64,000 nt of DNA from Octopus vulgaris. Taxonomy: Eukaryota. The position numbers and the translations under genes are program-made. The DNA lies in the NCBI GenBank assembly GCA_951406725.2, contig OX597814.1:100502001-100566000 (forward strand). The letters are read 5' to 3'. Below are positions 53,115-56,912 of this stretch, piece by piece. Below the pieces are notes generated by a model. That model had not been told where the DNA came from and searched no databases. It saw only the letters and a program-made list of their open reading frames with translations. How positions within the stretch are numbered: the stretch's first letter is position 1; the number at the start of each line of letters is the position of its first letter.

Positions 53115-53524
53115 TTTGTTGTTGTTATACTATGGAAGATCTAGAAACTTTTATACATGTACGCAGATGTTGGTGGTGGTGGTCCGTGTTGGCGGCATTT
53201 TGTCTATTTGAGTTTATCTTTCAAATTAAATTCGCTAAAGTTATAGTAAACTGAGTTTTTAGAGTCATATTACTTTATCTTTTTGTGCATAGCTTAAAAA
53301 ACGATATCAACCTTACGGCATGTTGTCTTGGTATCGCTCATTGAAAGGCGGCCATGCAGAGCTTTCCTTCAACGGGTTTGATGCAAGTATTTCGCGCCTC
53401 GCATTTAATGTTACCGACTTATATTCATTGATTCAATGAGTTTATCGCAAGTTATGCCCTTCGTTGGTTGTTATATTCTCTAAAATATATAACAGAGAAT
53501 TGACACTGGTTTACACATGCGTCT

Positions 53525-53820
53525 GAAGGTGCATGGTTCACTGGTTAGAGCGTCTGGCTCAGTCATGAGGATGTGAGTTCGACTTCCGGACCAGGCTGTG
53601 TATTGTGTTCATGAGCAAGGCACCTTATTTCGCGTTGCTCCAATTCACGCAGCTGTAGAAATTAGTGACGACGTCACTGGTGCCAAGCTGTATCGGCCTT
53701 TGTTTTTCCCTAGGATAACATCAGTGTTGTGGAGCGGAGAGGCTGGTATGCATGGGTAACTGCTGGCCTTCCATAAACAACATAGTCGGGACTTGTGCCT
53801 CGGAGGTGCAATCGTTCTAT
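53525..53820 (+). mobile_element. tRNA-derived SINE (family D), followed by a partial family A copy (53825-54182, -)
   Basis: Head TGGTTCACTGGTTAGAGCG..GAGTTCGACTTCC with a CORE-like TTGTGTTCATGAGCAAGGCAC body. Confidence 0.75.
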
Positions 53821-53919
53821 TTCCTGAACCGCTAAGTTACGGGGACGCAAACATACCAACTTTGGTTGTGAAGCAACGATGTTGGGGACAAACACAGACA
53901 CAAGACACACACACACATA

Positions 53920-53998
<79 letters not shown>

Positions 53999-54180
53999 AT
54001 ATATATGTATATGTATGAATGTATGTATATATATGCACGACTGGGTTCTGTCAGTTTCGGTCAACCACTCACAAGGCTTTGGTCGGGCCGTGGCTATAGT
54101 TGAAGACACTTGCTCAAGGTGCCACGCAGTGGGACTGAACCGATGACCATGTGGTTTTTAAGCAAGCTTCTTATCACACA

Positions 54181-54222
<42 letters not shown>

Positions 54223-54402
54223 TGTGTGATAAGAAGCTTGCTTAAAAACCACATGGTCATCGGTTCATCCCACTGCGTGGCACCTTGAGCAAGTGTCTTC
54301 AACTATAGCCAGGGCCCGACCAAAGCCTTGTGAGTGGTTGACCGAAACTGACAGAACCCAGTCGTGCATATATATACATACATTCATACATATACATATA
54401 TA

Positions 54403-54468
<66 letters not shown>

Positions 54469-54857
54469 CATATATATGTGTGTGTGTGTCTTGTGTCTGT
54501 GTTTGTCCCCAACATCGTTGCTTCACAACCAAAGTTGGTATGTTTGCGTCCCCGTAACTTAGCGGTTCAGAAATAGAACGATTGCACCTCCGAGGCACAA
54601 GTCCCGACTATGTTGTTTATGGAAGGCCAGCAGTTACCCATGCATACCAGCCTCTCCGCTCCACAACACTGATGTTATCCTAGGGAAAAACAAAGGCCGA
54701 TACAGCTTGGCACCAGTGACGTCGTCACTAATTTCTACAGCTGCGTGAATTGGAGCAACGCGAAATAAGGTGCCTTGCTCATGAACACAATACACAGCCT
54801 GGTCCGGAAGTCGAACTCACATCCTCATGACTGAGCCAGACGCTCTAACCAGTGAAC
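53536..54857. repeat. 1.32-kb near-perfect palindrome (inverted duplication) centred on (AT)19
   Basis: 54221-54857 is the reverse complement of 53536-54182; outside the microsatellites only about three differences are visible; the centre 54183-54220 is pure (AT)n. Confidence 0.95.
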
Positions 54858-55176
54858 ACTCTCTTATATTTATTTTGTGAAAATATTATAATATGTTATA
54901 AAATATTATAATAATCCAGGTTTCTCGTAGCACTAGGCCACTTGGTGTGGAATAAATATACTATTAAATTAGTATCTAATTCTCTCACCCTTATTAATTA
55001 ATTATAATTATGCTGCATTTATTTCTAAATGCTGTATTTGTTTTTCCGTGAGAGTTTGGCGCGCTGTTGGTTGGGGCATTTGAATTATAACGTCCGATGT
55101 AATCAATTGAACCGCACGCGTAATTATCGTTATGGTAAAATCTGGCGTGTGATTGAGTGGATTTCATCAAGATAGC

Positions 55177-55254
55177 CTTGGCTGAAGAGCTACAAATGGA
55201 TTACTGTAAGTAATATTACATTTAATTCATTAATAGCGAAACAATTGTCCCAAG
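55177..55254 (+). ncRNA. Type I hammerhead ribozyme, copy 1
   Basis: Stem I CTTGG/CCAAG; core CTGAAGA (55182-55188); stem II GCTA..TAGC; GAAAC (55238-55242); AATT loop; GTC cleavage triplet, predicted cut after 55249. Confidence 0.85.
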
Positions 55255-55711
55255 ATAATCTGTATTTTTGTTATTTTTTATTTGCCCTGTCCGTGTGAAC
55301 TAACAGTCGTACCGGCTTTCATGGGAAACATGTATTTTTCGTGGTTGAAACCTCTTGGATTAACTAGTGCTAGAGTGATCAATATAGTGAACACTCTCTT
55401 ATATTTATTTTGTGAAAATATTATAATATGTTATAAAATATTATAATAATCCAGGTTTCTCGTAGCACTAGGCCACTTGGTGTGGAATAAATATACTATT
55501 AAATTAGTATCTAATTCTCTCACCCTTATTAATTAATTATAATTATGCTGCATTTATTTCTAAATGCTGTATTTGTTTTTCCGTGAGAGTTTGGCGCGCT
55601 GTTGGTTGGGGCATTTGAATTATAACGTCCGATGTAATCAATTGAACCGCACGCGTAATTATCGTTATGGTAAAATCTGGCGTGTGATTGAGTGGATTTC
55701 ATCAAGATAGC

Positions 55712-55789
55712 CTTGGCTGAAGAGCTACAAATGGATTACTGTAAGTAATATTACATTTAATTCATTAATAGCGAAACAATTGTCCCAAG
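55712..55789 (+). ncRNA. Type I hammerhead ribozyme, copy 2
   Basis: Identical to copy 1; predicted cut after 55784. Confidence 0.85.
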
Positions 55790-56246
55790 ATAATCTGTAT
55801 TCTTGTTATTTTTTATTTGCCCTGTCCGTGTGAACTAACAGTCGTACCGGCTTTCATGGGAAACATGTATTTTTCGTGGTTGAAACCTCTTGGATTAACT
55901 AGTGCTAGAGTGATCAATATAGTGAACACTCTCTTATATTTATTTTGTGAAAATATTATAATATGTTATAAAATATTATAATAATCCAGGTTTCTCGTAG
56001 CACTAGGCCACTTGGTGTGGAATAAATATACTATTAAATTAGTATCTAATTCTCTCACCCTTATTAATTAATTATAATTATGCTGCATTTATTTCTAAAT
56101 GCTGTATTTGTTTTTCCGTGAGAGTTTGGCGCGCTGTTGGTTGGGGCATTTGAATTATAACGTCCGATGTAATCAATTGAACCGCACGCGTAATTATCGT
56201 TATGGTAAAATCTGGCGTGTGATTGAGTGGATTTCATCAAGATAGC

Positions 56247-56324
56247 CTTGGCTGAAGAGCTACAAATGGATTACTGTAAGTAATATTACATTTAATTCAT
56301 TAATAGCGAAACAATTGTCCCAAG
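56247..56324 (+). ncRNA. Type I hammerhead ribozyme, copy 3
   Basis: Identical to copy 1; predicted cut after 56319. Confidence 0.85.
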
Positions 56325-56602
56325 ATAATCTGTATTTTTGTTATTTTTTATTTGCCCTGTCCGTGTGAACTAACAGTCGTACCGGCTTTCATGGGAAACA
56401 TGTATTTTTCGTGGTTGAAACCTCTTGGATTAACTAGTGCTAGAGTGATCAATATAGTGAACACTCTCTTATATTTATTTTGTGTAAATATTATAATATG
56501 TTATAAAATATTATAATAATCCAGGTTTCTCATAGCACTAGGCCACTTGGTGTGGAATAAATATACTATTAAATTAGTATCTAATTCTCTCACCCTTATT
56601 AA

Positions 56603-56646
<44 letters not shown>

Positions 56647-56912
56647 CTGCCGAGATGGTAAGTTTATTTCTATGCTCGTAGCCCGATTTTTGTTGTGCTC
56701 TTTATTTTTCCAATGATTGCTGGTTGTCTTGAATGCTGGTACCGCGTGCGCCCTATTACAATTATCAATTCATTTAAAAATCTCGGATTTTGCCATTTAT
56801 AGGCTTTTCGTTGATGGCCACCAATATTATTGCTGTTATTATTCATTTTACTAACGATAATAATTAATGATAATATATATATAAAATTATTTTCGAATAT
56901 GTATTAATTAAG

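What the first reader, a model, noticed from the sequence alone, without database searches (positions are those of the whole stretch)
53536..56644. Insertion footprint: flank copied in inverted orientation and joined to the ribozyme array by a 7-nt microhomology
Seen: the layout is A-(AT)19-inverted A-array-(AT)n. The inverted arm stops at AGTGAAC (54851-54857), which is both the reverse complement of flank GTTCACT (53536-53542) and the first 7 nt of the repeat phase. Inference: cDNA primed in an (AT)n tract copied the RNA 3.3 times, then switched template by microhomology to the flank about 650 bp upstream and ran back to the (AT)n, producing a 1.3-kb palindrome. Known: PLE insertions often carry inverted segments at their 5' ends, but these are usually element-derived; here host DNA (two SINEs) was duplicated. 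This would make such insertions a source of genomic palindromes.
Basis: partly seen in the sequence, partly recalled or inferred. Interest (0 to 1): 0.75.

Follow-up and report, generated by a model that had tools for sequence, protein, structure and literature searches.

The report
Ribozyme repeat insertion with folded-back flank
A young ribozyme-motif repeat sits in an AT microsatellite beside a 640-base mirror copy of the neighbouring DNA, likely made when the broken chromosome end folded back on its own AT run during the insertion, a rare outcome already described for human L1 elements.

Summary
The layout is real: flank A (53536-54182), (AT)19, a 637-nt inverted copy of A, a 7-nt overlap (chance 4e-4), 3.29 copies of a 535-nt unit with a type I hammerhead motif, then (TA)n. 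The unit is a young non-LTR retrozyme with 778 identical 3' junctions in (TA)n. In the first 100 of these, 67 carry an inverted piece of the element that starts at an AT-rich phase, so both ends of the break normally act as primers. A long host-flank copy joined to the array was found in 0 of 135 other loci. Independently of the array, AT-centred fold-back copies are common here (63 at one SINE motif, median arm about 20 nt; one about 1-kb example). Best reading: the left break end snapped back on its own AT run, copied the flank and joined the cDNA by microhomology (0.5). No read bridging the junction and no empty allele was seen. The same footprint is published for L1 and R2; I found no report for Penelope-type elements or retrozymes.

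The parts
53536..54182 (+). Arm A: original host flank (template of the copy)
   Evidence: contig of run X6 covers this sequence and carries 439 further letters on the side of the upstream flank (record 27)
53524..53806 (+). SINE-like repeat copy 1 (label SINE inferred from copy number and layout), 75-86% to other copies; its first 12 nt lie outside the duplicated arm
53815..54182 (-). SINE-like repeat copy 2: head 54182-54040, internal TA/TG microsatellite, truncated body; head lacks the first ~13 nt of the usual start (left boundary approximate)
54183..54220 (.). (AT)19: spacer-less centre of the palindrome, inferred left half of the target site and fold-back primer
54221..54857 (-). Inverted copy of arm A, 637 nt; derived state at 54312 and at the deletion opposite 54135
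54851..54857 (+). 7-nt microhomology shared by the inverted arm and the array
54851..56611 (+). Retrozyme array: 3.29 copies of a 535-nt non-coding unit, 100% identical to the youngest copies elsewhere
55177..55254 (+). Type I hammerhead motif 1 (5-bp stem I, long stem II, minimal palindromic stem III, predicted cut after 55249)
55712..55789 (+). Type I hammerhead motif 2
56247..56324 (+). Type I hammerhead motif 3
56608..56644 (.). (TA)n at the family's fixed 3' junction; inferred primer of the main cDNA
56645..56905 (+). Right flank B: fragment of an older repeat (44 matches, others 68-88% identical)

Best explanation
A 3.29-unit array of a hammerhead-motif repeat lies in an AT microsatellite and is joined by a 7-nt overlap to a mirror copy of the left flank, which likely arose in the same insertion when the left end of the cut folded back on its self-complementary AT run. 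Steps: (1) inferred: a Penelope-type endonuclease/reverse transcriptase cut both strands in (AT)n; (2) shown as a family footprint, inferred for this copy: the right end primed cDNA at the fixed AT-rich 3' phase and copied a circular or multimeric RNA for 1761 nt; (3) inferred: the left 3' end, which in most family members primes a second cDNA on the RNA, instead paired with itself and was extended along its own strand for about 640 nt; (4) inferred: the new 3' end was unwound, paired with the cDNA through the 7-nt match, and both strands were filled in (snap-back synthesis-dependent microhomology joining).
For: Fixed 3' junction in (TA)n at 778 places, control 0. Of the first 100 listed junctions, 67 have an inverted element segment at the left; of 65 with both arms resolved, 61 start at AT-rich unit phases 395-445 and 50 abut an AT run; 22 second arms are longer than the main arm and 7 share no unit position with it, so they are not copies of the main cDNA. 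A purified Penelope-like protein cleaves and extends both strands at AT-rich DNA and starts inside the RNA (PMC11167929). AT-centred inverted copies exist without arrays: 63 places at one SINE motif, 40 of 50 with matching variants on both sides against 35.6% expected, p=1.7e-10, 30 of 50 arms perfect, 37 of 50 resuming the SINE body. Overlaps of 7 nt or more occur at 4 of 31 young inner junctions. Arm and array are both very young, 3 point differences in 507 nt against 3 in 1761, p=0.13; two of the three arm differences are derived in the copy, the third is undetermined.
Against: No second case of a long host-flank copy joined to this array among 135 other loci, so the coupling rests on one locus. 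The arm is far longer than most background fold-backs (median 20.5, range 12-304 nt) and than those of L1 (52-220 bp). A ~1-kb-arm AT-centred palindrome with no array joined to it exists (L151), so long fold-backs do not need an insertion. The final sequence is equally compatible with the cDNA-invasion route. The mobilising element is not identified: the intact 781-aa Penelope-like family I examined shares the (AT)n target but no clear DNA similarity with the unit.
Confidence: 0.5

Rival explanations
1. One reading: the cDNA 3' end paired with the flank about 650 bp upstream through the 7-nt match, copied the flank back to the break, and its new AT end annealed to the left end.
For: Gives the same final sequence. 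R2-protein insertions show cDNA ends priming on nearby target DNA (PMC11371274); cDNA-mediated hairpins are proposed for L1 foldbacks (PMC11702581). L111 shows a fold-back on the element side of an AT run, so nascent element-side strands can also turn back.
Against: Needs the flank strand that 5' resection would remove, or invasion of a duplex (established knowledge, not tested). It ignores that the left end is usually a primer and that AT-centred fold-backs form with no cDNA present.
Confidence: 0.2
2. Two separate events: a background fold-back at the AT run came first and the array later inserted at its end with a small deletion, or the array inserted first and a later break at its left AT run was repaired by fold-back and microhomology inside the array.
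For: Long young AT-centred palindromes without a joined array exist (L151, about 420 nt of non-simple sequence per arm); AT repeats break and are repaired by microhomology joining in human cells (PMC13645644); about 6 of 99 other loci have a 5' junction to non-AT sequence (read by eye).
Against: Rough expectation from 1 such palindrome in 3312 AT tracts is a few hundredths of a case genome-wide among young arrays, against a few tenths if the L1 rate of 0.3% applied (my estimate, weak). Arm and array ages are not distinguishable.
Confidence: 0.2
3. Assembly or read artefact: a fold-back chimeric long read merged with an array read.
For: Two of three point differences are 1-nt deletions in the second arm. 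No independent read support was obtained.
Against: A fold-back read would run on into the flank upstream of 53536 rather than switch to the array at a 7-nt overlap (inference). The array ends at the family's canonical junction and the flanks are collinear. Many element-arm palindromes with consistent phases are assembled in the same genome.
Confidence: 0.08

Closest known systems
Foldback inversion (inverted duplication) 5' of L1 target sites (Nam et al. 2023, PMC10191854; 2 passages read); local inverted duplications at L1 sites (PMC11702581; 12 passages)
   Same: Inverted duplication of flank upstream of the target, joined to the 5' end of a retro-insertion; rare (4 of their insertions, 0.3% + 0.1%); occurs beside twin-primed insertions.
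   Different: Here a non-coding retrozyme in a presumably germline animal genome, arm about 640 nt against 52-220 bp, centred without spacer on a self-complementary (AT)n target.
Snap-back 5' junctions of R2-protein insertions (PMC11371274; 7 passages)
   Same: Antisense copy of nearby target DNA next to the cDNA end.
   Different: Engineered system; attributed to the cDNA end; mostly copies the cDNA itself.
Metazoan non-LTR retrozymes (PMC7229834, 10 passages; bioRxiv 10.64898/2026.07.22.740005, part 1 of 5 and 3 passages)
   Same: Non-coding tandem unit with one type I hammerhead each, dispersed arrays, strongly self-paired monomer (z = -7.7).
   Different: Unit of 535 nt, above the 170-400 nt quoted; the passages I read do not describe inverted arms, (AT)n targets or flank copies.
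Tandem/inverted insertion architecture of endonuclease-bearing Penelope-like elements (PMC8557442, 12 passages; PMC11167929, parts 1-2 of 4)
   Same: Microsatellite target, fixed internal start points, inverted 5'-truncated partner in most family members.
   Different: At this locus the inverted partner is host DNA, not element.
Snap-back SD-MMEJ (PMC5728401, 12 passages) and local foldback templated inversions at breaks (PMC11724301, abstract)
   Same: A 3' end primes on its own strand through an inverted repeat, makes an inverted copy and joins the other end by new microhomology; lengths of 5-34 bp match the background class here.
   Different: The copy at this locus is about 20-30 times longer and the other end is a cDNA.

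Membership tests
Metazoan non-LTR retrozyme | Tandem units each with a type I hammerhead | tested here: met
   Core, stems I-III and GUC triplet in all three full units; Rfam gathering search gave no match
Metazoan non-LTR retrozyme | Dispersed, mobile, many copies | tested here: met
   277 matches among 40 scored of 878 candidates; 778 exact 3' junctions
Metazoan non-LTR retrozyme | No protein-coding capacity | not tested
   No ORF scan of the unit was run; judged non-coding from its AT-rich sequence
Metazoan non-LTR retrozyme | Self-cleavage and circular RNA | not testable with these tools
   Only a folding prediction; no RNA run was laid
Penelope-mobilised element | Microsatellite target, fixed internal start sites, inverted 5'-truncated partner | tested here: met
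Penelope-mobilised element | Sequence shared with the terminal repeat of an autonomous Penelope-like element | tested here: inconclusive
   16 copies of one 781-aa RT + GIY-YIG family gave no clear match to the unit; other families were not examined
Retro-insertion-associated foldback inversion (L1 type) | Inverted copy of upstream flank directly joined to the insert's 5' end | tested here: met
Retro-insertion-associated foldback inversion (L1 type) | Copy and insertion arose together (absent from the pre-insertion allele) | tested here: inconclusive
   Empty allele not read; ages compatible
Snap-back SD-MMEJ | Inverted primer repeat at the break, inverted copy, microhomology to the other end | tested here: met
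   (AT)19 centre, 637-nt copy, 7-nt overlap
Snap-back SD-MMEJ | Dependence on polymerase theta or another host polymerase | not testable with these tools
   No experiment possible

The most novel reading that the evidence does not exclude
Penelope-type enzymes make symmetric double-strand breaks in (AT)n, and each 3' end then chooses a template: the RNA (twin-primed arrays, two thirds of insertions) or its own strand (fold-back). The many insert-free AT-centred fold-backs in this genome, thousands if the rate at one SINE motif (63 per roughly 89,000 sites) holds elsewhere, would be empty footprints of the same enzymes, and this locus would be the hybrid that links the two outcomes.
Probability: 0.2. 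Interest if true: 0.6.

Novelty: new member of a known kind. Interest (0 to 1): 0.33.

Why it matters
It extends a rare L1/R2 insertion footprint to a ribozyme repeat moved by Penelope-type machinery, whose second-strand and resolution steps are still undefined (PMC8557442, PMC11167929). More useful than the single locus is its context: both ends of a break in (AT)n act as primers, and AT-centred fold-back copies are a countable mutational signature in this genome. That gives a testable route to ask whether these breaks come from the retroelement endonuclease or from AT-repeat fragility. As a source of host-DNA palindromes the insertions themselves look minor.

Tried and rejected
Read support: contigs of runs X1, X2, X3, X6 laid on 54492-55380 listed no piece bridging 54851-54857, but 39,175 pieces were not shown and X2 and X6 carry a different allele at 54831, so this says nothing about the junction. 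Contigs of X1, X3, X5, X6 on 56575-56908: the tool skipped 56575-56653; one X3 contig matches 56654-56853 exactly and has 90 further letters on the left that were not shown, so the empty allele stays unread. Candidate host-flank inversions near other arrays (L084, L086, L088, L110, L132, L148, L063, L065) were rejected: they are inverted pairs of other repeats, not centred on the array's AT run or not joined to its 5' end. L235 looked like a second coupled case but source and copy were reversed; the automatic source/copy label was wrong there and probably for L223. Snap-back on the main cDNA as the general origin of the family's inverted arms was rejected. The three unit variants in the array are absent from the other loci or seen once, so they do not identify a donor array. 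Rfam found no hammerhead. Search for the autonomous partner through GIY-YIG gave an intact family without a match to the unit. PMC9977147 (12 passages) held nothing on this layout. Look-ups in earlier findings by words and by sequence returned nothing.

Full report
Observation. The sequence shows A (53536-54182), (AT)19 (54183-54220), an inverted copy of A (54221-54857), a 535-nt tandem array (54851-56611) and (TA)n (to 56644). The arms differ by two 1-nt deletions in the copy, one substitution, and changes inside the internal TA tract. The seven letters at 54851-54857 belong to both the copy and the repeat phase; a simulated blunt join gives an overlap that long in 0.043% of draws. The junction occurs once among 40 scored candidates and other copies of the SINE in the arm are at most 86% alike, so the arm was copied locally. 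Arm A holds two SINE-like copies; the second includes the internal microsatellite. The label SINE is my inference.

The array. Each unit has a type I hammerhead motif (55177-55254 and +535, +1070), not picked up by Rfam at gathering score. The monomer folds far better than shuffles (z = -7.7). The genome has 2.8 Gb in 227 contigs; size and about 30 large contigs fit an octopus (recalled; earlier notes also say octopus). Units 100% identical to this one lie on several chromosomes and the junction unit end + (TA)n occurs 778 times, control 0. This fits a young non-LTR retrozyme (PMC7229834, 10 passages; bioRxiv 10.64898/2026.07.22.740005, part 1 of 5 and 3 passages). Cleavage, RNA circles and coding capacity were not tested. 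Three uncut motifs and a 3' end away from the predicted cut site imply a circular or uncleaved multimeric template with an internal start (inference).

How the family inserts. I fetched 38 loci from the best BLAST matches and 98 further loci so as to cover the first 100 listed junctions, C1 and part of C2. Of the 100, 67 have an inverted element segment on the left, 6 a possible very short one, 12 a single arm on (AT)n, 15 a single arm on other sequence, this locus included. Of 65 with both arms resolved, 61 second arms start at AT-rich phases 395-445, 50 abut an AT run, 22 are longer than the main arm and 7 share no unit position with it. So the second arm is not a copy of the main cDNA; both break ends prime on the RNA. 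This agrees with a purified Penelope-like protein that cleaves and extends both strands of AT-rich DNA from internal start sites (PMC11167929, parts 1-2 of 4) and with the known tandem/inverted layout and microsatellite bias (PMC8557442, 12 passages). At 31 inner junctions with both arms at least 96% identical to the unit, 14 have overlaps of 2 nt or more, 4 of 7 or more (one of 31 nt in a symmetric AT-rich stretch, doubtful), 9 are blunt or 1 nt, 8 have inserted letters. Earlier notes on other retrozyme families in this genome reach the same two-ended reading; they are AI notes and not independent evidence. An intact 781-residue RT + GIY-YIG family also ends in (AT)n but shows no clear match to the unit, so the partner enzyme is unidentified.

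How often is host flank copied? In 135 other array loci (99 from the list plus 36 further young ones; L036 counted once, the all-repeat contig L068 left out) I found no inverted host copy of 25 or more informative letters joined to the array's 5' end. Copies confined to the AT run would be invisible. A scan of 3312 AT tracts in 1.42 Mb found, besides this locus, L111 (a 158-nt fold-back of the element side around (AT)10) and L151 (arms of about 965 nt, 95% alike, with about 420 nt of non-simple repeat sequence, 3 kb from the nearest array and not joined to it); the other top rows were simple repeats.

Fold-backs without arrays. A pattern for one SINE motif facing its mirror image across at most 38 letters found 63 places, control 0, against roughly 89,000 motif sites (extrapolated from 31 in 0.98 Mb). 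I examined the 50 listed: arms 12-304 nt, median 20.5 (12 is the floor set by the pattern), 30 perfect, 37 resuming the SINE body within 400 nt, none with the unit or the Penelope family on the copy side. Motif variants match across the centre in 40 of 50 against 35.6% expected from 49 background copies, p = 1.7e-10. Fold-back at an AT run is thus a background repair outcome here, like the 5-34 bp foldback inversions at yeast breaks (PMC11724301, abstract) and snap-back SD-MMEJ (PMC5728401, 12 passages). AT repeats are break-prone and repaired by microhomology joining in human cells (PMC13645644, 12 passages), so the breaks need not come from a retroelement.

Mechanism. Shown: the anatomy, the family's two-ended footprint, the background fold-backs. 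Inferred: one break in (AT)n; the right end primed 1761 nt of cDNA; the left end folded on itself and copied about 640 nt of flank; the two new strands joined at the 7-nt match (0.5). Two separate events remain possible because of L151 (0.2). Artefact is unlikely but unrefuted (0.08). Arm and array ages do not differ significantly (p = 0.13); the copy carries the derived state at two of three point differences, the third is unclear. Public contigs neither bridged the junction nor showed the empty allele.

Comparison and novelty. The same footprint is published for L1: foldback inversion of 52-220 bp upstream of the target in 0.3% plus 0.1% of somatic insertions (PMC10191854, 2 passages), inverted duplications and foldbacks in cell models (PMC11702581, 12 passages), and snap-back onto nearby target DNA for R2 protein (PMC11371274, 7 passages). 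Nine library searches listed no paper describing it for Penelope-type elements or retrozymes; the library lacks most subscription papers and I read no supplements, where such cases could be listed. Verdict: a real, probably single-event, rare variant of an insertion of a known class of element, with a footprint known from other retrotransposons; the length of the copy and the self-complementary target are the new details. Interest 0.33.

Noticed in passing
L201-L250 (50 of 63 places): Short inverted copies of the adjacent flank inserted at the internal AT run of one SINE family; a countable fold-back signature, about 0.07% of motif sites; L212 shows two rounds, L228 copies from both sides.
   Followed up: partly
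L151:5969-7901: 1.9-kb palindrome centred in a long imperfect AT tract, with two near-identical tail-to-tail copies of a 420-nt repeat fragment and mirrored microsatellite interruptions; no array joined.
   Followed up: partly
L111:3605-3946: Fold-back around (AT)10 that duplicates the short second arm and 120 nt of the main arm of a twin-primed insertion of this same family.
   Followed up: partly
L185-L200: Young Penelope-like family with an open 781-residue RT + GIY-YIG frame, fixed 3' ends in (AT)n, partial tandem end repeats, inverted 5' pieces in 2 of 16; my regex found no canonical hammerhead in it.
   Followed up: partly
L068 (contig C120, 6501 bp): A whole small contig made only of this unit, about 12 copies with an inversion near its end; unplaced long array or reads from an extrachromosomal form.
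   Followed up: no
L034 and L035 (C4, 14 kb apart); L073, L125, L127: Array insertions with the same flanks at several places, probably segmental duplications carrying the insertion.
   Followed up: no
window 56645-56905; L168, L170: Right flank is a 5'-truncated piece of an older repeat whose longer copies carry a hammerhead-like core upstream, so this AT run already bordered an older insertion of similar type.
   Followed up: partly
L086, L088, L110, L063: Large inverted pairs of other repeat families, some with hammerhead-like cores, sitting in the same AT tracts as this family; several families share the target.
   Followed up: partly
L065:2251-2930: Near-perfect 265-nt inverted duplication of a SINE with a complex centre, not centred on an AT run.
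   Followed up: no
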